The notes under the pieces were generated by a model. The model saw nothing but the letters and a program-made list of their open reading frames with translations. It did not search any database and was not told where the DNA came from. A stretch of 37,069 nt of DNA. It comes from Monosiga brevicollis MX1. Taxonomy: Eukaryota. Positions 1 to 36,344 of the stretch are shown here, piece after piece; the first letter of the stretch is position 1, and each line of letters begins with the position of its first letter. A program made the translations under genes and the position numbers. The stretch lies in the NCBI RefSeq assembly GCF_000002865.3, contig NW_001865083.1:1-37069 (forward strand), given 5' to 3'.

Positions 1-1516
1 TGCGATAAAAGTTGGGTGGTTTCCGTGAAGCACACGCAGCTGCAGATCGCGACGCATCGTCTCCAAACGGTACACCTTGCCCCCCACTTGCTGCCCCAGC
101 TTTCGAAACAGATGCTCCTGGTCCCCGATGCAAAGTGTGCCCGTCAACGCCACGCGTTTGATGTTGGCCCATCCGCCAGAACCCACACTGGCTGCGACTT
201 CGTCCATCACATCTCGGTAGCTGGCATCCGAGATGAGTGTGTGCGCCTCGTCCATCACCACGGTGCGGATGCGCTGAAAGCAGACCTTCCCGTGTAGCGA
301 TTCAGATCCCACGCGGACAAACATGTCGGTCGTAACGATGAGCACGTCCAGGCCATCTGCCACCTGTGTAGAGGGACCAAGCCATCGCTGGGCACTGTGA
401 CCTGCGCCTTGAAATCGCCGCAATAAATCGTTGGCCACGGCCACAAACGGCACAATCCACAGCACCGTACCGGCATGCGGGCGACAGCCCAGCTTGGGCA
501 GGGTACAAAATGTTTTACCCATGCCTGTCGGTGCAACAACAATCAGCCATCCATCCTCGGGCCGGTGCTGGTCAATGGCCGCAGCCAGGTCCAACTGTTC
601 TTGGCTGTTGAAACTGTGGCCCCAGGAGATGCTCGCCTGCTTGGCCAGCTGGGTCATGTAGGGTACGTCATGCTCGGCCCTCGTGTTCATGATGATACGC
701 CCGTTTGCTTCGGGCGAGAGGTCAGTCACCGGGTTCCAGCTGATGGGATAGCGAGCTTCCAATGCTTCTTGGTTCGCGGTCAACTCGGCCATGCTGCGCG
801 TGCGATCTAGTCCAAACAAAGCATGCCATTTTTTGCGAGGCCACTTGATGCATCAGTCGCGACGACATTTTGGTTTGCACATGGTCACTGGCTGTGCGCG
901 CATAGGCCCGCTGGGCCGTGTCCCCAGAGTGTTGAGGTTGAGTGTGGATCAGGCTGCCCAGGGCGCCGGTCGTCTCGGCCGACAGTCAGTTGATCACAAA
1001 CGTAGTCATCCAGAAGGTTGCGGCGTGTCGCCACGTGGCCACCCCCAGCTTTGGCCGATGCAGGTACGTGGTCATTTGTCGACGAAATGCCGCATAGATG
1101 GTGGCTGGGCTGACCATCGCCTGCAGGGGCGCAATATTGAAGAGGAGATGGCTGTTGTTGTAGTGGTTTCGAGCGTCCCGAACCTCGCGTCGCAATGTCA
1201 TCGTCTCGTCGTGGCTCATGTGGTCTTCATCCAGCTCGTCGTCGAGGAAATCTTCGTCGTCCTGCTCGGCATTGTGAAAGCCATTCTCGTCGTCGGGGGT
1301 TTTCAGCCCGCCCCGCTTTTGCAGCCAGCTGCTCAGCATGTGCTCCAGAGGCTTGCACAGCAGCAAATACATGAATATCAGCGTGCTGATTTCCTGGTCC
1401 ATGTATCGAAAGGTGTGCTGTTTGTTCAGAAGCAGCAGTTTTGGGTTTGCGAGGAAGCGGGTTGTGTCGAGAAGGCATTTTGAAAGAGGTTTGAGAGATA
1501 TGGTGGTGTCTCGAGG
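1..1516 (-). pseudogene. Telomere-linked RecQ-type (SF2 DEAH) helicase with upstream TLH-type domain; disrupted and running off the window edge
   Basis: Manual minus-strand translation of 828->1 (absent from the ORF track because it has no stop) gives Walker A VVAPTGMGKT (511-540), motif Ia LWIVPFVAVAND, motif II VVMDEAH (DEAH at 241-252), motif III ALTGT and ETMRRDLQLRV. The upstream frame (1516->829) reads RYMDQEISTLIFMYLLLCKP...LGVATWRHAATFW...QPQHSGDTAQRAYAR...VASQK/WHALFGL, resembling fungal TLH N-terminal regions as I recall them. There is an in-frame TGA at 986-988 and a 1-nt frameshift in the T6 run at 829-834. Confidence 0.85.
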
Positions 1517-1903
1517 TCAATTGAGCTAGCTGCGGTCGGCAAGCATTCACAGTGACCAGGCCAGATGCACTATTGGAAAGGCTCTACAGACGCACAGGGA
1601 AAGTGCAACCCGTGCCAGCCAGAGGTGTCACAACAAACAAACAAACAACAACGAAAAACCGTATACAAGCTTATCACACAAGGCTGTCTGCCAAGACATT
1701 GCAAAGTACACGAAGCACACGGGTCGACGCATGTGCCCCCTAGAGGGAAGGCACGCCTCAGTACGTCTAGGTGTGTATGTTAGTCAGGGGATGAAGTCAT
1801 GTCAGCTTCATAGGGGTTCCTGTGGTAAGACCCCTCGTCAATAACGCTGACCGTGTGCAAAAGCATCTGAACAAAGGATTTGCTGCTCACAACCAACTAG
1901 CAC

Positions 1904-4900
1904 CTAGTCCAGCACATCCTCATTGGCCGTGTAGTATACAACCAGCTCGGGATAAATTTGGGCATTGTCAAACACAATCACCTCATGGAATTCCCCAGAG
2001 GGTGTCGCGACGACCGAGTCATACCTGAAGAGAATTCAATGGCAAACGCAACAGTCGGATCAGAAGGTGGGCAAAGGCAACATGCAACAGATGGTCGATT
2101 TTGCCCAACGCACCGCTCGTTGTTGAGCGCATCGGGCAGGATCGGCGGGGCCAGGGCCCCCCTTCGTGGCGGCTCGTTCACAGAGGCCAGGCCAAGCAAA
2201 GCTCGCGTGATAATCAACATGCGCACCCCGTTGGATCCAGCTGTAGCGTACTGGTGACTCTAAAATCATGTGGCCGGCACAGTGTCAATACACTAGCGTT
2301 CAGAAGCTGAATTGACACAAAAACTCCACGTTACCACACCTTGCGGGGATCGTCGGCTAAATATACACCTCGGCCATACTTGTGGCCAGCATTGCTACCA
2401 GTAAAGCGAATATCTAGGCCCAGGCGCACGATCTTGTCGCGCAACCCTGGGAAGGGGCCGATGCCGTGGAGCAACAAACGCTCTTGACAGGATGTATTGC
2501 GAAGCAAAGCTGGAGAGCCCGAGAGCGCATCCCAGGCAGCCGTTTGGAGTTGATCATAGTGCTCCTGTCTTTTGATACGATGCAACATCTCGCGTCGCTT
2601 GGCACTGTAGCGCTCCCACAGCACGGGGTTTTGCACGCGCTCTACCCGTTGTACTGCGATATTGGCTGACCCCCACTCGTCAGTGCCCAGCTGCCTCAAA
2701 AGGTTAGCCACCTAGTCACACAATAAACGTATATTAGCAGGCTGTTGCAAAAGCGGTGCTTCATCGCCAACCAACGTACTTCTGGAATAAGCTCGGGCGC
2801 ATCACGCAAAACGTCAATGGCTGGCCCGACATGGGTGTCGACAAGTCGCTGAGCGTTTTGCACAATGCTGAGTAGGTGTGGACGTTGTTTTGGATCCGTT
2901 GCAAGCAAGGCGCGCGTTTCCTTGTACAATTTGCTCGTCGAATCGCACATCTGCAATGGAAAAAGGTACATGAGCTTAGAATGTGCTGGCCTTGCCTGAT
3001 CCAGCCGCACTGACCTCAGCAGCCAGATGCGGAAAGTTGCAGACAACATTTCCCGCTGGTAAAATCCAACTGCATTGATCCACAACCTCATCATCCCGTG
3101 GGTGAGCAGGTGGCACCGTTTGTGGGTACATGTAGGTGTTGTAGACAACACAGCCGAAGGAATAGGCATCTTGTGCTGGACGCGCCCCCACTCGGCCCCG
3201 GCCAAAAAGTACTTCGGGTGCCACATAGCCTGCCGTGCCCGACGATGCAGTGGCCGTGCATGGCAGCATGGTGGCTTCAGCAGCGGCTTTGGCAATGTCA
3301 AAGTCACCCAACCGCACGACGGGTTGATCCTCTGCGCCGTCCAGCATGACGTTGCTCAGCTTGACATCCCGATGCACCAGGCCCTTGCTATGCATAAACG
3401 CCAGGGCCGTGCGCAGCTGATTCATCATTTCCGAAATCACAGTTGAGGTGGCCATCTGGCGCGCCTTATCGAGCCACTGTCGCAGGTCTCCTTGCGAACA
3501 CCACGGCTGCACCAAATAGGCGCTGGGGTGGCCTTCCTTCATGTCCACAAGCGCGCCAAGGACCGGAACGATGTATGGGTGCTCAAGCTGGCGCATGGCG
3601 CGGAGCTCACGCAGAAATGTTCGGCACTGGTCCTGCTTATGTTGCCGAGCAAAAGCGTACTCCTTGACAGCCAAATCTTGTTCAGGACTCTCTGGAAGCG
3701 CGGCACGGGCCTTGTACACCTTGTGGTTTTGGTTGTCATGAAGGTCAAGCTGGCCCAGGCTGGAGAGCGTCAAACCTTGGTCTACTTCGGTCATGGCCTC
3801 CAAGATAAGGCTGGCTGGAAGGTCGGGACCAAGCACTGTGCGGAGCCGCGCTCCCAGCGTGCTTTGTTCAGGGTGCAGAAAGACCAGCAGGGCTGGGAAG
3901 TGCTGGTGCAACAGCTGGGCGAGCTCTGCGACGTGGTCCACTTGTGGCTGATTTGATACTTGTTGTCGTAAGGTATCCAGCCGTTCCTTCTTTTCTTGCA
4001 GCTTGTGTTCGAGGCTTGGACGCATATCCTCGGGCAAGAGCTGCAGTGCTGCGTTGACACCTTCAATCTCGGTCTGAAGTTTTGTCAGCTCTTCGTGGGC
4101 AGCCACCGATTCATCATCAACGTCTTGAGTCAAGCTGTTCACATGACTCATGCACGAGTCTAACACGGAGAGCGCCGTGGCCTGCCAGTCGATCATGTCT
4201 TGTAACTGCTGCAGCAGAGCTTGCGACTCGTGGTGTACAAACGCCAAGTACCAGTCCTGATGCTCGTAGTTTGGAGGTGGTTGCCACTGAGCAATTTGTT
4301 CGAGACCATTGTGCTCAAGCAGGCTCAGCTTCTCGTGAGCTTGGCACAGCTCCTCCCAGGCCTCGGGCAATGCCTCGGCTGGCGGCGGTGCACTTGCATC
4401 CACACATTGCGCGCATTGGCGAAGCGTCTCTACGCGATGAATTGTGTCGGTGGTTCCCGCTCTTGCCACAGCGCCCAGGGCATCGATCAAGGCCAACGCT
4501 AGGCACTTGAGGTTGCTGTTGGCGCTGGTGAGCAGCTCTTGACGCTTGGTTTCTACGTCGTGTAGCACGGCAATTTTGCCCAGGGCTGCCCCAAGGTTGG
4601 TGGGCGGCGTTTTGGGTGCGTTTGTCAGAGCGGTGGGTGGAGCGGGGCACGCTGCCAGCAGGGTCTGAAGCTCAAGAAGCACCGGCTTCAGCTTAAAACC
4701 AGCAGTGACATTGTGCATCTCTTGCAGCACTGATTTTAGACTGTCAGCGTTTGGGTCCAATTGCTTCAAGCGGCTGCTCAATGCTTCGGGTGCTTCCAGT
4801 GCTTGGTCGAGCGCGTTGAGGGCCTGGGTGGTTGTTGCCTGGAAGGCAACCCAGTCCATAGCAGGAAACTCTGATGGGGCTTCATCGATGGTCTTTTGGA

Positions 4901-7900
4901 TGTTAGCAACCGCCGCTGCAAGATTGGGATTTTCTTTGGCGGCACCGCTGATAAAGGCATCGAGGTGTGGTAGAGTATGGGTGGTGGTGCGCTCCGGCAG
5001 GAGTGGCCTGAGCCAGGTGTCCACCGCCACCACAACAGAGGCTGTGGTCTAAATAAGGATTGCGTGGTGCCATGCGTTGTGATGAGGTGGAATGAGGCTG
5101 TGTGGGTGATGGGGCAGTAAATGCATTTGGAATGCAAGAGGGGCAGGCCTACCTTGAGGGTCGGTGCAGGGCTGGGCAGGGGCGGCAGCCAGAGAAGACC
5201 CTTGTGAGCAGCAAAGACGAGCTTCAGCTTGTCGCCATACCCGTTGGCACATCCCAAATCGAGGGGTGATTCGCTTGCCTGAGAACATGGCCACAATCAA
5301 GCGATTGGAGCGTGTGAGATGGGCAGTGAAACGAGGGTTAAGTTGGGTGATGGGTGTTTGCTTTCTCATGTCAAAGGCAAGGCGACAATGCTTCAGAGTT
5401 CGCTGAAAACGCTAGACGCAAGAGCATTCGACGAACGGCTCAGACAGGTCGCAAGGGTTTGAAAGGAAGCGCGGTTGGAGAAAAAAAGTGGGGGCGCCGA
5501 GTGTGGCGGGGGTTAATTTGAAGAAATGGCCACCAAGAGCCGCTGGAGAGCGAGAGGCAGCGGCGTGGTGACAAGGAATGAAGAGGTACCCAGATTGAAG
5601 TCACAGCATCAGGAAAGGGAAGAGCGAGGCCAGCAGGCGGAAGAGACCAGCAGGGAACTGGGCGGAGTGCAAGGAGCACCGACAAAGCGTGGACGCAAAA
5701 CGGGGGAAGAAAAGGGATAGCGGGAAAGAAGACAAAGAGCCAGAGGTAGAACGGACGCGCACGGTGGGCAGGGTGTAGAGGAGCGAGGGTTTGGGCAAAG
5801 GCGACGAGCAGCGGGAGCAGGAGCAGCAACCAGAGGGGGTACAGGGAAGAGGGAAGTATTGTACTGACGTAGTTCTTGGTTTCAGTATCAACACCGTGCT
5901 CCAACAGCATCTCTACCACCTTGGCATGACCCTCAATGCAGGCCTTGTGCAGTGGTGTACAGCCATCCTGTAGGATGATGCATCAGCATGACGTACAGGT
6001 ACAACATCAACATCATTGTCATCTTCATCATGTGGTACAGGTGCATCAGGGGGAGGGGGAGGGGGAAAGTGGCAGGTACTGTTCTGACGTTGTCTTTGGC
6101 TTTGGCGTCAACACCGTGCTTCAACAGCATCTCCACCACCGTGACATGACCCTCAATGCAGGCCTTGTGCAGTGGTGTATAGCCACCCTGTGGGATGATC
6201 CATCAGCATTAGGTACATACAGGACATCATCATCATCATCATCGTCATCTTCATCATGTGGTACAGGTGCTTCAGGGGGAGGGGCGGTGGAAGTGGCAGG
6301 TACTGTTCTGACGTTGTCTTTGGCTTCGGCGTCAACATCGTGCTTCAACAGCATCTCTACCACCTTGACATGACCCTCAATGCAGGCCTTGTGCAGTGGT
6401 GTGTTGTCACCCTGTGGGATAATCCATCAGCATACAGGTACATCATCATAATCATCATCATCATCATCATTATCATCATGTGGTGCAGGTGTAGGAGGTA
6501 AGGGGGGGAAGAGGGAGGTTCTGTACTGACGTTGTTCTTGACTTTTGCATCAGCACCGTGCTTCAACAGCAGCTCCATCACCTTCACGTGGCCGCTAGCG
6601 AAGGCCGAGTGGAGTGGTGTACTGTCCTCCTGTGGGATAATGCATCAGCATTAGCAACGGCATCATCGTTATGAGGTATAGGTGCACCACCAAGGAGGAG
6701 CGAGGCGAAAAAAATAAGAATGGTCACTGAAAGCTGCTTGAGTGCGCGATGGCACGGGGTGGGGTGGTGCCCGGATTAAGTCACGACATCACCAAAAAAC
6801 AAGACGAGCAAGAAGCACCGACACAAAGTGTAAAAAAAAACAGGGGACGAGAAGGGGAAGTAGGAAAGGAGAAAAGAGCAGAATGCAAAGGCGGGAGGGG
6901 CAGGGCAAAGGCGACGAGCAGCGGGAGCAGGAGCAGCAGCCAAAGGGGGTGCAGGGAAGAGGGAGGTACTGTACGGACCTTGTTCTTGGTTTCAGCATCA
7001 ACACCGTGTTCCAACAGCATCTCCACCACCTCGACATGACCGCTAGCGCAGGCCAAGTGCATTGGTGTATCGCCACGCTGTGGGATGATGCATCAGCATG
7101 ACGTACAGGTACAGCATCATCACCATCATCATCACCATCATCATGGGGTACAGGTGCACCATCATAGGGGGGTAAAGGGAGGGACTGTACTGACGCTGTC
7201 CTTGGCTTCAGCATCAGCGTGCTTTAACAGCATCTCCACCTCCTCGACATGACCGCTAGCGCAGGCCTCCTGCAGTGGTGTACGGCCACCCTGTGGGGAG
7301 CATGCACCAGCATGACGTACAGGTACAACATCATTATCATCATCATCAATCATGTGGTACAGGTGCACCATCATAGGGGGGTAAAGAGGGGGAAAAGGGA
7401 GGTTCTGTACTGACGCTGTCCTTGGCTTCAGCATCAACACCGTGCTTCAACAGCACCTTCACCACCTTGACATGACCTTTTTTGCGGGCATAGTGCAGTG
7501 GTGTCCAGCCAGACTGTGGGATGATGCATCAACATGACGTAAAGGTACAGCATCATCATCAGCAGGTCTACCATCACAGATAGAGGAGGGGTAGTTAAAG
7601 GGGCAGGAGGTAGGTACTGTACTGACGTAGCCCTTAACTTCAGTATCAGCACCGTGCTTCAACAGCATCTCCACCACCTCGTCATGACCGTTAAAGCAGG
7701 CTCTGTGCAGTGGTGTACCGCCATACTGTGGGATGATGCAGACATGCAGTATAAGTCCCATGTTATACCATAACGTCACCCCATCCAGTGACATATTCAA
7801 AGTGTAACCAATATCACACGTCATTACATCAAACAGCATACATACCACATCACCTTTGTATTGGGCAGCATCTCGAATACGTTCATGGTCCCAGCTGGTC

Positions 7901-7971
7901 AACAGCTGCACCGCCAATAGGGGATCAGATGCGTTACACGCTTCGTGCAGCTGCCTTCCATCATCACTCAT
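1904..7971 (-). CDS. Ankyrin-repeat / coiled-coil / Ser-Thr protein kinase / PARP catalytic domain fusion protein (15 exons)
   Basis: Exons with GT-AG and compatible phases: 7846-7971 (alternative ATG at 8001), 7627-7725, 7415-7513, 7195-7290, 6979-7077, 6531-6629, 6313-6411, 6089-6187, 5869-5967, 5153-5278, 3015-5048, 2780-2950, 2340-2711, 2114-2259, 1904-2024. Ankyrin consensus G.TPLH.AC..GH..VVEMLLKHG.D...KD. Kinase motifs AVKE, RELRAMRQLEHPYIV, HRDVKLSNVML, DFD, GTAGYVAPE, DAYSFG, DPKQRP. PARP motifs VQNPVLWERY, LLHG, YGRGVYLADDPRKSHQY, RALLG, YDSV, HEVIVFDNAQIYPELVVYY. Confidence 0.88.
5869..7725 (-). repeat. Tandem array of eight exon+intron units, each exon encoding one 33-aa ankyrin repeat
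   Basis: Seven 99-bp exons and one 96-bp exon, all phase 0. The flanking introns are similar: donor GTCAG/GTCCG, (GAT)n tracts, acceptor CCCACAG/CCTACAG. Period is mostly ~210-225 bp. Confidence 0.93.
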
Positions 7972-10360: not shown

Positions 10361-10529
10361 CTCAAGCGTGATGTGATGCCGTGAAAGGGGCGGGGAAGGG
10401 CGGGAATATATCAGCACGCCGTCCAATACCAGGCGCTACTACCCCGTCCGCCGCGCAGCCTGGTCTCGAGTCTGCCATTCACAGCGTCCGACGCTCAAAT
10501 ATTAAAAAATTAAAAATTAAAAATTTGAA

Positions 10530-10708
10530 TCTCTCTCTCTCTCTCTTAACTCGCTCTCTCTCTCTTAACTCTTCACTCGCTCTCTCTCTCTCTCTGAATC
10601 TCTCTCCAAATTCGCTCTCTCTCTCTCTGAATCTCTCTCTGAATCTCTCTTTGAATCTCTCATCACTCTCTCTAAACTTCTCACTCTCTCTGAGTTTCTC
10701 TCTCTCTC
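10530..10708. repeat. Degenerate (CT)n / CTCTCTGAAT pyrimidine tract in a divergent intergenic region
   Basis: Direct reading. It lies between the exostosin (-) and vWA-Hint (+) starts. Confidence 0.9.
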
Positions 10709-11418
10709 AACTTTCAATGGTCTGTGTCCCTCTCGGTTTTCATTACTACATGTGGTAATTACGTCGTTTCTTGGTGCCTTTGTCAAACATGATTCTCGTC
10801 TTTCTCTGTTTGACTTCTTTTCTCACTACATGTAGTACTTACAGTTAACGTATCTCGTTGCCTCACACACACACTCACACACATCCAAGTTAAAAATAGC
10901 AAATCATGCCAATTTAAGCACACACGCCCAGTTGCGCCACATCTTGATGTTCATCACAGCTCTAAGATTTATGCTTTCAACCTCTAATTCTCTGAACCTT
11001 GATACACTCTCCTTCCTCTCTCTGCTTTCGCTTTTCTTTCCCCTTATACCAAAACCCCCTCTCAGACTCCCTCTCTATGATCATCCCCATTTGCTCCTAC
11101 CCTCTCAAAGTCACACGAGCAGCGCTCTTTTCTCTCACGCTGCCTCGCCGTGTGCGCGGCGGCCAGCTGACTCACATTTATCTCCGGCTTTTTCCTTCTG
11201 GATCTCGTCCTTTGCAAGCACCTTTCTCTTCTGCTTGGTCTGCGGTTGTTGTCAGGTCAGCTCCCTTGTTCCCTTGTTCCATGCATACCTTCCCTCTTAC
11301 CCCTTGCCTGCCCTTCTCACGTCCCAACCTGACCGTCCAATTCCAGCTAGCGCCTGGCTGCTCCCTGAAAACCTTCAACGCCTCCTCGCCTCAGCGCGCT
11401 CCAACACCAACAGACGAC

Positions 11419-13721
11419 ATGTGGGAACCGGTTTCAGATGGGCATTGGGTGCAAGAGCCAGAGTCCGACCCAGAATCCGAAACCAGCGATGCAGGGGAGG
11501 ACAGAGAAAAAGACCCAGCAAACACTCGCCCAACCGACCAGCACCCCCAGTCCACCGCGCCCGCCCTTAGCGCCCAACTGTATGCCACGTCGACTGCCGA
11601 CACGTTGATATGCGCGCTGGCTGCCAGCGCGGCCTCGGCTCGCGACACGCCTTTACACGTGTGCTTGGTGCTGGACCGCTCCGCCTCAATGTCCGTGCCC
11701 GTCACTGCACGAGATCGCGAGCATGCCATTGTCGAGTACGACATTACCGTCATGGACATGGTCAAGTATGCCGCCCGCGTGGCCCTCCACTGCCTTGCTC
11801 CGGGCGACCGCATCTCCGTCGTCTCCTTTGCTGATCAAGCTCGCATCGACGTACCCCCTACCACCCTCCCGAGCACCCCCACTACCACCACCACCACCAC
11901 CGGCCCCGCCGCCCAAGGCAACTCCGAACTGGCGGCGGTTGTCGCTGGGATCGACCAGATTGCCGCCGAGGGCCGCACCAACCTGTGGGCTGGCCTGCGC
12001 ACCGCCCTCACCCTCCTCCGCGAGCACCATGTGCCTGGAACCCACAACCTCTGCATTGCCCTCACGGATGGCGTGCCCAATTGCCACCCGGCCCTGGGCT
12101 ATGTCGAAGCCCAACGCGCCTTTCAAAACGACCCCGACTTTCGCTACGTTCTCAACACCATTCCATTTGGCTACGAAGACATGGACGCCAAGCTCCTTCA
12201 CCAGCTAGCCCTGCAAGGCGGTGGCATCATGGTCAACGTACCCGACTGCGGCATGGTCGGCACCGTGCTCACCAACATGCTGGCCAATGCCAAGACCACC
12301 ACCCATTGCGACCTGGCCCTGCATGACCCCCACCGCCTCCTCAACCGCCGACTCCCTTGCCGGGCCGATGTCGCATATGACCGCAAGCTTGGGCGCCTCG
12401 CTCTCGGTACCCTCCATGCCCAGCAGCCCCGCCACCTGGCCCTCGCCCTGGATCCTAGCCAGGCTGCCGCCCTTGCGCCTCTGACGACGAGGACGAGAGC
12501 GAGGACCTTGAGGATTTTGAGGACGTCGACCATCACACCGTTCTCAAGCTAGATCTGTCGCACCTTTTGACCCTGCGCGCCTTCAACGTACGCACGGGCC
12601 AGGTGGAAGAGGTGCCCGTGCCCCTTGCTGACCTTGAACTGCCCGAGTCCGAGGAAGCGCGGACGCTGCTGCGCGATGCTGTGTGTGCCGAGGTGCGCCA
12701 GCTCAACGTGCTGATGGCTGCGCGCCGCAATCACACGGCCAGTCAACAGCTTGCTGCTTTTCTGGAAGACCACGACGTACTGGACCTGGACCCCGAGCTG
12801 TTTATCGACCTGAACGAGCAGGTGCGCCAGGCCCTGGCCCCGAATGCTTACCGCCGCTGGGGTCATACCTACCTTCCCTCCCTTGTGATGGCCTACACCG
12901 CCCACCTTCGGCACAACTTTAAGGACCCTGGCGTGCAACATTTTGGCGGCTCCCGTTTTCGTCAGCTGGCTGCCCAGATGTCCGACATTTTCGACAGCCT
13001 CCCGGTGCCCCAACCTTCACTGCACACTGGACGCCGCCTCCCTTCCCTGGCCGTGCTCAACGATTGCCTGGGCGGCTGCTACACCGGCGACAGCCTTGTT
13101 ACCCTGGCCGACGGTACCGTCTGCCGTTGCGATGCCGTTCGGCCCGGCTTTTGTTTGGCCGGCGGGGCTCGCGTGGCGTACGTCATGGCCACGGCGTGCG
13201 TTTCCGGGCGCGAAGACCTCTGCCTTGTGGCCCCAGGGCTGAGCTTGACTCCCTGGCACCCCATTTGCCGCGAGAACGAGTGGTTTTTCCCCGCCGATCG
13301 CTATCCCATCCTGCGCAGTCAACGCTGCGCTTTCAAGTATAGCTTTATTCTCGATGCTCCACCGTCGCGCGGGGCCGTGGTTGTGGTCGGTGGCGTCTCC
13401 ACTGTGGCGCTCGGTGGTGCCGACCAAGCGCGAGCAGCCTTGCCCGCGGCTCGCGACCCCAACGCCGTGCTGGAACACGCCTTTTTTGGCACCACCGCCG
13501 TCCGCCGCCGCGTGGCCGAGCTTGCCCCGCTCTCCAGCAGCCGGGTTGCTGGCCGCTACCTCGTGCTTCAACCGCACGCCTTTATCCGCCCGACTCCCTC
13601 GGCTCCCATCTCGGACATTGACGCCCGCGCCGTTGTGCCCCTATGCATAACCCTCAACCCGGCTTGGCTTTTCAACTTTTCACCGCGGGCTGTCTCCCAG
13701 GCAGCTGTACCTTGCGCATAA
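11419..13721 (+). CDS. vWA-Vwaint-Hint (Vint-type) autoprocessing protein, interrupted by an apparent frameshift at ~12459-12480
   Basis: The first frame from ATG 11419 has vWA MIDAS CLVLDRSASM, ISVVSF, GRTNLWAGL and ALTDGVPN. The second frame (to 13721) has Vwaint YRRWGHTYLPSL...NFKDPGVQHFGG...FDSLPVPQPS, the Hint start GG|CYTGDSLVTLADG (Cys 13077-13079), block B LTPWHPI, YSFILD and the Vint tail HAFFGT. Confidence 0.87.
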
Positions 13722-14025: not shown

Positions 14026-14235
14026 TCTCCTCTCATAATCTCTCTCTCTCTAAATCTCTCCCCTCATGCTCTCTAAATCTCTCTCTCTGAATCCCTCTCT
14101 GAATCCCTCTCTGAATCTCTTTGCTCTCTCTTTGTCCCTTTCTCTCTCTCTTGGAATCTCTCTTTCTGTTGATCCCTCTTTCTGTTGATCCCTTTCTCTC
14201 TTTTTTTCATCACACGTACACTCGCTCTTCTCAAA

Positions 14236-14281
<46 letters not shown>

Positions 14282-14385
14282 AACTTTCTCTCTCTCTCTC
14301 CCTCTCTCCCTCTTCTCTCAACTTTCCTCTCTCTCTCTCACCTTTTCCTCTCTCTTCTCTCACGTTTTCCCTCTCTTCTCTCAAC

Positions 14386-14482
<97 letters not shown>

Positions 14483-14521
14483 TATTAAATTTTTCCTCTC
14501 TCTCTCTCTCTTCTCTCTCTC
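14026..14521. repeat. Long CT-rich microsatellite (pure (CT)n at ~14391-14480) immediately upstream of VPS8
   Basis: Direct reading. Confidence 0.95.
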
Positions 14522-31577: not shown

Positions 31578-32130
31578 GAGGAGAGAGGAGAGAGAGGAGA
31601 GAGAGGAGAGAGAGGAGAGAGAGAGGGTTGAAGCGCGATCGCACGCTCGCACGCACGCGTGTCGCGTTGAGAGATCTACATAGCCAGCGAAGCACAGAGA
31701 GAGTGTGTGAGTGAGAGAGAAGTGAGAAAGAGAGAGAAGTGAGAGCGTGAGGAGGAAGAGAGAGCGCTTAGAGAGAGAGAGCGCTTAGAGAGAGAGCGCC
31801 GAGAGAGAGAGCGCCGAGAGAGAGAGAGAGAGTGTGTGTGTGTGTGGAGGCAGAGGAGAGAGGAGAGCGGAAAGAGAGTGTGTATGTCAAGGGAGAGAGC
31901 TGAGGGAGAGAGGGGGAGAGAGAGTTGAAGAGGAAGGAGAGAGGAGAGAGATGGAGAGGAGAGGGTTAGAGCTGAGGGAGAGCGCCGAGAGAGAGAGAGA
32001 CGGAGAGAGAGAGACAGCACGCCAAGAAAGAGGGAGAGAGACGACAGGGTGCGAGACAGAGAGAGAGACAGGGAGAGAGACGGAGAGAGCGTCGAGAAAG
32101 AAACAGAGAGAGCGCGCGGGCGAGAGACAA
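31578..32130. repeat. GA-rich microsatellite tract upstream of the JmjC membrane-protein gene
   Basis: Direct reading. It is CT-rich on the gene's sense strand, as seen upstream of VPS8 and the vWA-Hint gene. Confidence 0.9.
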
Positions 32131-36302: not shown

Positions 36303-36344
36303 GGGTCAGGGTCAGGGTCAGGGGGTCAGGGTCAGGGTCAGGGG
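36303..36344 (+). repeat. (GGGTCA/TCAGGG) hexamer array, six copies
   Basis: GGGTCAx3-GG-GGGTCAx3-GGGG, read directly. Confidence 0.9.

What the first reader, a model, noticed from the sequence alone, without database searches (positions are those of the whole stretch)
1904..7971. Ankyrin-coiled-coil-kinase-PARP fusion: a tankyrase-like layout with an inserted kinase
Seen: splicing links ~9-10 ankyrin repeats, a ~430-aa helical/coiled-coil region, a kinase and a C-terminal PARP domain in one frame. Established: tankyrases are ANK-SAM-PARP telomere regulators, and animal PARPs are not fused to kinases. Inference: either a sensor (ANK) - oligomeriser - dual-effector immunity or cell-death protein, or a telomere-acting ADP-ribosyltransferase encoded at the subtelomere.
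Basis: partly seen in the sequence, partly recalled or inferred. Interest (0 to 1): 0.8.

Follow-up and report, generated by a model that had tools for sequence, protein, structure and literature searches.

The report
Ankyrin-kinase-PARP family gene in Monosiga
This choanoflagellate gene is transcribed and is predicted to join eight ankyrin-repeat exons, a helical region, a protein kinase and a PARP enzyme domain in one protein; it is one more copy of a large Monosiga family that already sits uncharacterised in the databases, it likely acts as a sensor with two enzyme outputs, and it is not a tankyrase.

Summary
On the minus strand, 7971-1904, lies a 15-exon GT-AG gene predicted to encode 1,294 residues. 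Its parts are an N-terminal cap, eight 33-residue ankyrin repeats (one exon each), a cap-like exon, a ~430-residue helical region with no known family, a Ser/Thr-type kinase and a PARP domain split over three exons. One public RNA contig matches this copy perfectly and skips intron 2339-2260. The other 13 junctions rest on GT-AG, frame and collinearity with paralog models.

The organism is Monosiga brevicollis. At least 26 annotated gene models, all uncharacterised, are 60-86% identical paralogs; nine carry all three domains. This scan met the family before on other DNA (e1-8068251, e1-8068253).

The PARP domain is closest to PARP12/PARP15, not tankyrase. It keeps His-Tyr-Glu, and no SAM domain or telomere repeat is present, so the tankyrase/telomere reading fails. 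The sensor-plus-two-effectors reading fits but is untested. Variation among the repeats concentrates at ligand-contact positions, and the array shows a block-duplication scar.

Kinase-PARP proteins also occur in Emiliania huxleyi and in unnamed environmental sequences. A 97%-conserved helicase gene follows this copy. Interest is moderate.

The parts
7846..7971 (-). Exon 1: start ATG at 7971, 42 codons, N-terminal cap-like helix pair (MSDDGRQLHEAC...)
   Evidence: Donor GTATGT. The start and the exon end are collinear with paralogs P0003 and P0120. No Pfam Ank hit, so 'cap repeat' is inferred.
7627..7725 (-). ANK exon 1 (33 codons, phase 0)
   Evidence: PF00023 40.1 bits.
7415..7513 (-). ANK exon 2
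   Evidence: PF00023 42.6 bits.
7195..7290 (-). ANK exon 3 (96 nt, one codon shorter)
   Evidence: PF00023 31.1 bits.
6979..7077 (-). ANK exon 4
   Evidence: PF00023 40.6 bits.
6630..6978 (-). Long intron (349 nt) carrying the scar of a block duplication
   Evidence: Its first ~270 nt are homologous to the head of the terminal intron after ANK8 (207 invariant of 434 columns). Its tail is the usual inter-repeat intron tail. Tandem Repeats Finder sees two separate arrays, 6954-7740 and 5844-6654.
6531..6629 (-). ANK exon 5
   Evidence: PF00023 32.3 bits.
6313..6411 (-). ANK exon 6
   Evidence: PF00023 37.0 bits.
6089..6187 (-). ANK exon 7
   Evidence: PF00023 38.9 bits.
5869..5967 (-). ANK exon 8
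   Evidence: PF00023 39.3 bits.
5153..5278 (-). Predicted extra exon (42 codons, phase 0): C-terminal cap-like half repeat plus a Pro-rich linker. It may be optional.
   Evidence: AG/GT borders, frame kept. Homologous stretches occur in paralog models P0003 and P0055. Two RNA contigs of run X3 leave a loose end at 5050 that I read by eye as ...LPPLPTTSTLE, the end of a P0003-like paralog's cap exon joined to the next exon. No Pfam hit. Without this exon the frame still holds, giving 1,252 aa.
3015..5048 (-). Large exon (678 codons): helical region (about 5048-3759) and most of the kinase (Pfam Pkinase match 3692-3129). Lys809 at 3665-3663 and HRD Asp908 at 3368-3366.
   Evidence: Perfect-match X3 contigs lie at 3991-4134 and 4631-4964.
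2780..2950 (-). Exon with the C-terminal end of the kinase domain (57 codons)
   Evidence: Collinear with 4 of 4 paralogs. In paralogs the Pkinase match runs through this part, to profile positions 253-261 of 263.
2340..2711 (-). PARP exon a (124 codons): catalytic His1164 (2468-2466) and Tyr1199 (2363-2361)
   Evidence: PF00644 24.4 bits. Phmmer against 1.84 billion representatives gave 69 hits. An RNA contig covers 2599-2340 and splices to 2259.
2114..2259 (-). PARP exon b (48 codons plus 2 bases)
   Evidence: The RNA contig covers 2259-2112.
1904..2024 (-). PARP exon c: Glu1269 (1984-1982), stop TAG 1906-1904
   Evidence: An X3 contig covers 1933-1780 and runs on past the lower end of the laid stretch.

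Best explanation
The stretch is a 15-exon gene of Monosiga brevicollis that is transcribed and is spliced at the one junction public RNA contigs cover. It is predicted to encode a 1,294-residue protein with eight ankyrin-repeat exons, a ~430-residue helical region, a Ser/Thr-type kinase and a PARP12/15-like domain with a His-Tyr-Glu triad. It likely works as a ligand sensor (the ankyrin array) coupled to two enzyme outputs in some biotic-conflict or non-self-recognition role.

Shown:
- the exon structure, the domains and the catalytic residues;
- transcription of this very copy;
- membership of a family of at least 26 annotated M. brevicollis models;
- amino-acid change among the eight repeats concentrated at the canonical ligand-contact positions;
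- growth of the array by duplication of a four-repeat block.

Inferred:
- the ankyrin array binds a variable protein ligand;
- binding, possibly through the helical region, switches on the kinase and the NAD+-dependent ADP-ribosyltransferase;
- these modify targets or the protein itself, or consume NAD+;
- the family's expansion reflects an arms race.

My confidence is about 0.9 for the gene and its architecture and about 0.3-0.4 for the conflict role.
For: Structure. There are 15 exons and 14 GT-AG introns, the frame stays open throughout, and the product is 1,294 aa.

RNA. X3 record 18 (408 nt, 0 differences) joins 2340 to 2259. Perfect-match X3 contigs also lie at 1780-1933, 3991-4134 and 4631-4964, at depths 51-98.

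Domains.
- Pkinase scores 122 bits.
- 8 of 8 ANK exons score above the gathering score.
- The spliced PARP aligns contiguously with stand-alone PARPs.
- PARP12 and PARP15 are the best solved relatives, and Glu aligns with PARP12's third triad residue.

Motifs. AVKEY, FLRELR, HRDVKLSN, GDFDIAK and the PARP Glu (F/T-H/R-E-V) are kept in the window model and in 4 of 4 paralogs compared. Y-V/I-A/P-PE, LL(L/F)HG and GxGVY are kept with small variations.

Family. 26 named M. brevicollis models were found. The helical region is 58-76% identical to paralogs, the kinase 74-83% and the PARP 67-76%. In a quick tree the window copy groups with P0002 and P0159, SH-aLRT 99.

Repeat variation. At the six positions that map to the randomised positions of designed ankyrin proteins (the mapping is recalled), dN is 0.758 against dS 0.493. 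At the other 27 positions dN/dS is 0.81. Only 5 of 10,000 random six-position sets reach that dN.

Block-duplication scar.

A kinase followed by a PARP recurs elsewhere. 28 of 38 relatives of P0064 carry both Pfam domains, among them an Emiliania huxleyi protein and one ANK-kinase-PARP protein.
Against: - Only 1 of 14 junctions is shown by RNA for this copy. No contig bridges the kinase exons to the PARP exons.
- The kinase lacks a recognisable Gly-rich loop: the Pfam match starts at profile position 21. It has DFD in place of DFG, so activity is not assured.
- The window's PARP exon alone is under the Pfam gathering score, 24.4 against 26.7.
- The dN/dS signal is modest (1.54). It rests on 6 codons and 28 non-independent repeat pairs within one gene.
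- Over all 33 codons dN/dS is 1.05. Exons are no more alike (0.79) than the short introns (0.80).
- No NTPase, death, TIR or other domain typical of known immune receptors was found.
- The main text of the M. brevicollis pathogen-response paper (PMC8592570) does not mention PARP or ankyrin, 0 occurrences each. Its expression tables were not among the files held.
- Both structure predictions were poor.
Confidence: 0.45

Rival explanations
1. Same gene and protein, but an ordinary intracellular signalling or stress enzyme with no role in conflict. Examples would be NAD+/ADP-ribose signalling coupled to phosphorylation, or scaffolding through the ANK array. The many copies would simply reflect a duplication-prone region.
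For: Kinase and PARP motifs are conserved across paralogs. Over the whole repeats dN/dS is about 1, and exon identity equals intron identity. That pattern could be relaxed constraint and recent duplication instead of selection. No immune-type domain was found.
Against: The family is restricted to one species in the libraries searched. Of 69 hits to PARP exon a, only 5 exceed 60% identity; four trace to M. brevicollis models, the fifth directly only to an unnamed record clustered with one. Housekeeping enzymes are rarely kept in 26 diverged copies. Change is concentrated at ligand-contact positions.
Confidence: 0.25
2. The gene travels as part of a repeated block together with the helicase gene that follows it. 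The block could be a large mobile element or a subtelomere-type repeat. Copy number would then reflect the spread of the block, and the protein would serve the element.
For: A DEAD/ResIII helicase ORF lies downstream on the same strand at 1-852. It is 97% identical (269 of 278) to the helicase part of the fused model P0002, while the ANK-kinase part is only 82% identical. Pieces of the helicase gene's 5' ORF (986-1516) also follow the PARP domain in P0003 and P0004. P0002 is in the window copy's nearest clade. Depth over conserved parts is far above that of unique contigs in the DNA-like runs, though the tool warns that this is not a copy number.
Against: Only 3 of the 26 paralog models (searched among 181 stored proteins) show helicase sequence, in 2 of them only a fragment of the 5' ORF. 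No terminal repeats, transposase or telomere repeats were seen in the window. The helicase and the ANK-kinase-PARP gene differ greatly in divergence, so they need not share a history.
Confidence: 0.12
3. Gene-model artefact: the kinase protein ends at the stop at 2976 or 2696, and the PARP exons form a separate gene or are untranslated.
For: No RNA contig bridges 3015/2950 or 2780/2711. A contig of run X2 (kind uncertain) runs unspliced across 2613-2927.
Against: The gaps are only 64 and 68 nt, with GT-AG borders and the frame kept. The joined sequence is collinear with 4 of 4 paralog proteins. The kinase domain would lack its last subdomain without exon 2950-2780. The PARP exons are transcribed and spliced in this copy at a depth like that of the helical region. 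The unspliced contig is what DNA would give.
Confidence: 0.05
4. A tankyrase relative that ADP-ribosylates telomere proteins and is encoded at a subtelomere.
For: ANK repeats lie N-terminal to a PARP domain with His-Tyr-Glu. A helicase neighbour recalls telomere-linked helicases of fungi (recalled, not tested).
Against: No SAM domain. Tankyrase-2 is a far weaker match than PARP12 or PARP15. No telomere repeats. Ordinary genes lie next door. No tankyrase was detected in M. brevicollis by Sowa et al. 2022 (PMC9688111, passage).
Confidence: 0.03

Closest known systems
Annotated M. brevicollis MX1 paralogs, e.g. MONBRDRAFT_12993 (A9VDZ1), _39188 (A9VCS5), _12449 (A9VCB1), _36063, _30156
   Same: Same order ANK - helical - kinase - PARP. 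Identity is 58-83% by region, with the same catalytic motifs and the same splice-junction positions.
   Different: No stored model is identical; the best is 86%, so this copy is not in the protein collection searched. By a crude motif count it has 8 repeats against 0-3 in the models, but small exons are easily missed by gene prediction. All are uncharacterised. The names are automatic ('Poly [ADP-ribose] polymerase', 'Protein kinase domain-containing protein').
Tankyrase 1/2 (ANK-SAM-PARP)
   Same: An N-terminal ankyrin array used for partner binding, a C-terminal PARP domain, and a His-Tyr-Glu triad.
   Different: No SAM domain. A 430-residue helical region and a kinase lie in between. The catalytic domain is much closer to PARP12 and PARP15. 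No telomere link.
PARP12 / PARP15 (and PARP10 / PARP14) catalytic domains
   Same: These are the best solved relatives, at E 9.5e-12 and 1.5e-11. They share the N-terminal motif (V/I)ERVxNxxLWxxY.
   Different: Those enzymes have Ile or Leu at the third triad position and are mono-transferases (recalled). This family keeps Glu. The accessory domains (zinc fingers, WWE, macro) are absent here.
Kinase-PARP proteins of other protists: Emiliania huxleyi EMIHUDRAFT_96355 and unnamed environmental proteins (P0064, P0125, P0133, P0136 and others)
   Same: Kinase N-terminal and PARP C-terminal in one protein in 7 of 8 scanned; the eighth (P0140) is the ART-type exception noted under 'different'. P0136 also starts with ANK. 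P0064 aligns with P0120 in both domains, E 5e-18 and 1e-18, including a pre-kinase helix with the motif HFPxLL.
   Different: The similarity is no greater than to unrelated kinases (75 against 69 bits) or to stand-alone PARPs. Common descent of the fusion is therefore not established and it may be convergent. Some of these proteins carry an ART-type domain in place of PARP (P0140, P0141).
Repeat-per-exon candidate receptors (Ectocarpus ROCO-LRR / NB-ARC-TPR) and fungal NLR-like proteins with hypervariable ANK/TPR/WD repeats
   Same: One repeat per phase-0 exon, a variable repeat number, and change focused on binding positions.
   Different: No NTPase domain. The effectors are a kinase and a PARP. 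I did not read Zambounis et al. 2012.

Membership tests
Tankyrase (PARP clade 4) | N-terminal ankyrin repeat array | tested here: met
   8 of 8 ANK exons pass PF00023.
Tankyrase (PARP clade 4) | SAM domain between the ANK array and PARP | tested here: not met
   No SAM hit in the window ORFs or exons or in 13 paralog models scanned.
Tankyrase (PARP clade 4) | Catalytic domain nearest to tankyrase catalytic domains | tested here: not met
   Tested with the C-terminal 224 aa of paralog P0120. PARP12 scores 9.5e-12, PARP15 1.5e-11, PARP10 and PARP14 about 1e-6, tankyrase-2 1.3e-4.
PARP catalytic domain (PF00644) | Profile match at or above the gathering score | tested here: inconclusive
   The window's exon a alone scores 24.4 bits against 26.7. 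Exons b and c alone give no hit. The joined exons could not be sent to Pfam. Paralog models score 27.3-47.0 bits. The joined domain scores 90.6 bits against P0065, itself a 58.5-bit PF00644 protein.
PARP catalytic domain (PF00644) | His-Tyr-Glu NAD+-binding and catalytic triad | tested here: met
   His1164, Tyr1199 and Glu1269 are present. His and Tyr align with those of PARP12, and Glu aligns with its third triad residue.
PARP catalytic domain (PF00644) | ADP-ribosyl-transferase activity (mono or poly) | not testable with these tools
   Needs an enzyme assay.
Eukaryotic protein kinase (PF00069) | Profile match above the gathering score | tested here: met
   122 bits against 31.7.
Eukaryotic protein kinase (PF00069) | Catalytic Lys, alpha-C Glu, HRD Asp, Asn, metal-binding Asp, APE | tested here: met
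   AVKEY, FLRELR, HRDVKLSN, GDFDIAK and YVAPE are present. The DFG motif reads DFD.
Eukaryotic protein kinase (PF00069) | Glycine-rich ATP loop GxGxxG | tested here: not met
   The Pfam match starts at profile position 21. No such motif is visible upstream of Lys809 in the ORF.
M. brevicollis ANK-kinase-PARP family | Collinear similarity through the helical region, kinase and PARP, with one ANK repeat per exon | tested here: met
STAND / NLR-type immune receptors | Central NB-ARC or NACHT NTPase | tested here: not met
   No such Pfam hit in the window or the paralogs. The helical region has no match outside Monosiga: 0 among the 181 stored proteins, and no usable Atlas hit.
STAND / NLR-type immune receptors | Repeats under diversifying selection at binding positions | tested here: inconclusive
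   dN/dS is 1.54 at six mapped positions against 0.81 elsewhere. dN is concentrated there (5 of 10,000 random sets reach it), but the sites are few and the pairs are not independent.
Protist kinase-PARP proteins (P0064 / EMIHUDRAFT_96355 group) | Specific relationship beyond generic kinase and PARP similarity | tested here: inconclusive
   Both domains align at E about 1e-18, but they score no better than unrelated kinases or stand-alone PARPs.

The most novel reading that the evidence does not exclude
[quoted passage not shown] Exon-cassette ankyrin arrays would recognise non-self. A helical switch would then fire a kinase together with a Glu-bearing PARP that ADP-ribosylates targets or burns NAD+. 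Marine algae would have arrived at the same kinase-plus-ADP-ribosyltransferase effector pair independently.
Probability: 0.25. Interest if true: 0.8.

Novelty: new variant of a known kind. Interest (0 to 1): 0.5.

Why it matters
PARP-family enzymes are recurrent players in host-pathogen conflict in animals. NAD+-consuming effectors are common in bacterial and plant immunity. A large, species-restricted family in a choanoflagellate that wires a variable ankyrin array to both a kinase and a Glu-bearing PARP would be a distinct way to build a sensor-effector protein in the sister group of animals. It would also be a natural case for asking how phosphorylation and ADP-ribosylation are coupled within one polypeptide.

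The practical value of this window is threefold:
- it holds an intact, transcribed copy with the longest array seen here;
- it carries a readable scar of how the array grew;
- it shows a conserved helicase neighbour that may explain how the family spreads.

The novelty is limited. Family members have been in public databases since the 2008 genome. The ANK-plus-PARP combination in M. brevicollis was noted in print (Perina et al. 2014, PMC4245714, passage read). This scan has already reported the family from other DNA.

Tried and rejected
- Whole genome: none is held for this window.
- Sequencing runs: no RNA holder is listed. X3 is called RNA here only because one of its contigs lacks an intron.
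- Read depth: near-zero X3 depth over introns 2113-2025 and 2779-2712 was seen, but absence of cover is not used as evidence. Depth ratios are not used as copy numbers.
- The 30-base loose end at 5050: 0 matches in the window. It is read as a paralog's exon.
- Telomere repeats: 0 matches. The window ends are not telomeric.
- ESM Atlas on the helical region: no usable hit.
- AlphaFold2 of the helical region: mean pLDDT 57.9. Foldseek against PDB gave 0 matches at E <= 0.001. The best VIA-align Z was 10.2 (nesprin spectrin repeats) among generic helical bundles, below the level the tool calls meaningful for helical proteins. No fold was assigned.
- AlphaFold2 of the full paralog P0120: mean pLDDT 50.4, with only the ANK part confident. 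Not used.
- Complex prediction for a dimer of the helical region: not available, queue full or too early. Oligomerisation is untested.
- PDB sequence search with the helicase ORF: 0 hits.
- Link to the P0064 group: not distinguishable from generic similarity.
- Family tree: the careful search did not finish. A quick tree is cited.
- Literature: five searches found no paper describing an ANK-kinase-PARP or kinase-PARP family. I read passages only of PMC4245714, PMC2964712, PMC9688111 and PMC8592570.
- The M. brevicollis kinome paper (Manning et al. 2008, recalled) is not held, so it may already mention these kinases.
- The expression tables of PMC8592570 are not among the files held.
- Earlier-notes look-ups by sequence and by place near the finding: nothing.
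- One script call gave no answer and one Pfam call had a frame slip. Both were repeated correctly.


Full report
**What is there**

The window is eukaryotic DNA of about 55% G+C. On the minus strand between 7971 and 1904, open frames carry ankyrin, kinase and PARP signals.

Reading the sequence and a script gave a model of 15 exons and 14 GT-AG introns. It stays in frame from ATG 7971 to TAG 1906-1904 and encodes 1,294 residues. Without the exon at 5278-5153 it encodes 1,252. The exons are:

| Exon(s) | Coordinates | Content |
|---|---|---|
| 1 | 7971-7846 | start, cap-like N-terminus |
| 2-9 | 7725-5869 | eight ankyrin exons, 99 nt each (one of 96 nt), all phase 0 |
| 10 | 5278-5153 | predicted cap-like exon, possibly optional |
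| 11 | 5048-3015 | helical region and most of the kinase |
| 12 | 2950-2780 | end of the kinase |
| 13-15 | 2711-2340, 2259-2114, 2024-1904 | PARP |

The eight ankyrin exons have near-identical borders (CCCACAG | exon | GTCAGTAC).

**Domains**

- Ankyrin. All eight ankyrin exons pass the Pfam Ank gathering score, at 31.1-42.6 bits. Exon 1 and exon 5278-5153 do not, so calling them capping repeats is inference from their position and their TPL/helix-like sequence.
- Kinase. The 690-aa ORF gives Pkinase at 122 bits. The catalytic Lys, alpha-C Glu, HRDVKLSN, DFD and APE are present. HRDxKxxN is the Ser/Thr-type signature (recalled). No Gly-rich loop is recognisable and the profile match starts at position 21. 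The nearest solved kinases (ULK1, FAK, PknB, E about 1e-16) assign no group.
- PARP. Exon a alone scores 24.4 bits, under the gathering score of 26.7. Exons b and c alone score nothing. Joined in a script, the three exons align as one uninterrupted domain (residues 17-205 of 212) with stand-alone PARPs, up to 114.7 bits.
- PARP class. I used the C-terminal 224 residues of the clean paralog P0120, which is 76% identical to the window's PARP part. The best solved relatives are PARP12 (9.5e-12) and PARP15 (1.5e-11), then PARP10 and PARP14 (about 1e-6). Tankyrase-2 follows at 1.3e-4. His and Tyr align with those of PARP12, and the family's Glu aligns with PARP12's third triad residue. The triad is therefore His1164-Tyr1199-Glu1269.
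- Helical region. The ~430 residues between the repeats and the kinase have no Pfam family, no usable Atlas neighbour and no relative outside Monosiga among the stored proteins. AlphaFold2 predicts them all-helical at low confidence, and no informative structural match followed.

**Is it expressed as drawn?**

No run is on record as RNA. One contig of run X3 settles part of the question. It is 408 nt long at depth 80.9 and matches this copy without a single difference. It joins 2340 directly to 2259, skipping 80 nt whose ends are GT..AG on the gene's strand. That molecule can only come from spliced RNA of this copy, or of an identical one.

Other perfect-match X3 contigs lie in the helical region (3991-4134, 4631-4964) and over the stop codon and 3' UTR (1933-1780 and beyond), at depths 51-98. 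DNA-like runs X1 and X8 carry the unspliced form, 2096-2599.

No contig bridges the kinase exons to the PARP exons, because contigs break at words shared with paralogs. So 1 of 14 junctions is shown. The others rest on GT-AG, frame and collinearity with paralog proteins.

Two X3 contigs leave a loose end at 5050 whose letters are not in the window. They read ...LPPLPTTSTLE, matching the end of the cap exon of the P0003-type paralog. I take this as RNA support, in a paralog, for a cap exon spliced to the large exon.

**Organism and family**

The 690-aa ORF finds five long Monosiga brevicollis MX1 proteins at 70-86% identity and 19 more of similar length at 61-85%. Two further ones came through the PARP search. 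That makes 26 named gene models.

- Nine models carry ANK, Pkinase and PARP together. My own scans cover eight and precomputed Pfam covers the ninth.
- Seven more carry kinase plus PARP.
- None is identical to the window's protein, so this copy is not in the collection.
- In a quick maximum-likelihood tree of 18 rows the window copy groups with MONBRDRAFT_36063 and _30156, SH-aLRT 99. The careful search did not finish.
- PARP exon a, searched against 1.84 billion representatives, has 69 hits. Only five are above 60% identity. Four trace to M. brevicollis models, one of them through its cluster; the fifth is named directly only as an unnamed record that clusters with one.

The source names are automatic and the proteins are uncharacterised. 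Perina et al. 2014 mention that ANK plus PARP occurs in M. brevicollis (PMC4245714, passage). Five full-text searches found no description of the kinase-PARP fusion. The 2008 kinome paper could not be read.

The scan's own notes show that the family was met twice before on other pieces of this genome (e1-8068251, e1-8068253).

**The ankyrin array**

The eight repeats differ mostly at exon positions 1, 3, 8, 11, 12, 16, 30, 32 and 33. I mapped the randomised positions of designed ankyrin proteins (recalled) onto the exon register, giving positions 1, 3, 11, 12, 31 and 33.

| Positions | dN | dS | dN/dS |
|---|---|---|---|
| Six mapped positions | 0.758 | 0.493 | 1.54 |
| Other 27 positions | 0.167 | 0.207 | 0.81 |

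Only 5 of 10,000 random six-position sets reach that dN. My first, slightly wrong mapping gave a higher ratio of 3.8 and should be disregarded.

The signal is real as a concentration of replacement changes, but it is weak as proof of positive selection. Over all codons dN/dS is 1.05, and exons (0.79) are no more alike than the short introns (0.80).

The array is two tandem blocks. The 349-nt intron between ANK4 and ANK5 starts like the terminal intron after ANK8 and ends like an ordinary inter-repeat intron. This is the footprint of an unequal exchange that doubled a four-repeat block.

**Surroundings**

Downstream on the same strand, running off the window's start, lies a DEAD/ResIII helicase ORF.

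- It is 97% identical to the helicase part of the fused model MONBRDRAFT_36063, although the ANK-kinase parts of the two loci are only 82% identical.
- Pieces of the helicase gene's first ORF also follow the PARP domain in two other models.
- Upstream lie ordinary genes: GT47 exostosin, a VWA-Vint protein, Vps8, JmjC and nitronate monooxygenase.
- There are no telomere repeats.

**Beyond Monosiga**

One distant PARP hit, P0064 (an unnamed environmental protein), has a kinase followed by a PARP. It aligns with P0120 in both domains.

Among its 38 relatives at E <= 1e-10:
- 28 carry both Pfam domains, by precomputed Pfam;
- three carry an ART-type domain in place of PARP;
- one is an Emiliania huxleyi protein;
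- P0136 is ANK - kinase - PARP.

These proteins score no better against the Monosiga kinase or PARP than unrelated kinases or stand-alone PARPs do. A common origin of the fusion is therefore open. The recurrence of kinase plus ADP-ribosyltransferase in one chain is itself the point.

**Reading**

The gene and its architecture are solid. It is not a tankyrase and nothing ties it to telomeres.

The most likely mechanism is inferred from anatomy and family behaviour. The variable ankyrin surface would bind a ligand and control a kinase and a Glu-bearing PARP, in a conflict-type role. The rivals are ordinary signalling, a passenger of a repeated block with the helicase, or (unlikely) a split gene.

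**Verdict**

This is a further, intact member of an uncharacterised family already present in the databases. Interest is moderate.

Noticed in passing
window 1-1516, minus strand: A helicase gene (DEAD/ResIII) lies directly downstream of the PARP gene and runs off the window. ORF 1-852 is 97% identical (269 of 278) to the helicase part of MONBRDRAFT_36063, far more than the neighbouring ANK-kinase-PARP genes are alike (82%). Pieces of its 5' ORF (986-1516) also follow the PARP domain in two other models. It may be a young repeated or mobile unit. The PDB sequence search gave no hit.
   Followed up: partly
window 6630-6978 and 5500-5868, minus strand: The long intron in the middle of the ankyrin array is a chimera of the terminal intron's head and an inter-repeat intron's tail. 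This is a scar of the duplication of a four-repeat block.
   Followed up: yes
P0140, P0141, P0156 (unnamed environmental proteins): Relatives of the protist kinase-PARP proteins carry an ART/exoenzyme-type ADP-ribosyltransferase domain (PF01129, PF03496) in place of PARP. In P0140 it lies N-terminal to the kinase. The kinase appears to pair with different ADP-ribosyltransferase folds.
   Followed up: partly
P0058 (MONBRDRAFT_36900): A divergent paralog, 35% identical over 671 residues. Its PARP part has lost the catalytic His and breaks off early, and the model continues into a Fringe-like glycosyltransferase domain. This is either a decayed copy or a fused gene model.
   Followed up: partly
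window 10996-13721, plus strand: Two adjacent ORFs carry VWA, then Vwaint and Vint (Hint-type, hedgehog-related) domains. This is probably one VWA-Hint protein of the kind known from choanoflagellates.
   Followed up: no
window 14242-14521 and 31696-32112: Long CT and AG dinucleotide tracts (about 140 and 200 copies), with other CT-rich tandem repeats at 10524-10673 and 14046-14117.
   Followed up: no
window 36303-36344: A short (GGGTCA)n tract of about seven units in an intergenic stretch. It is not a terminal array and not the TTAGGG repeat.
   Followed up: partly
window 1780-5080, runs X1, X2, X8: Summed contig depth over the conserved kinase and helical parts reaches 100-880, against about 9 for contigs unique to this copy. 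Most laid contigs are 95-99% alike. The genome may therefore hold many more copies than the 26 annotated models. The tool warns that this figure is not a copy number.
   Followed up: no
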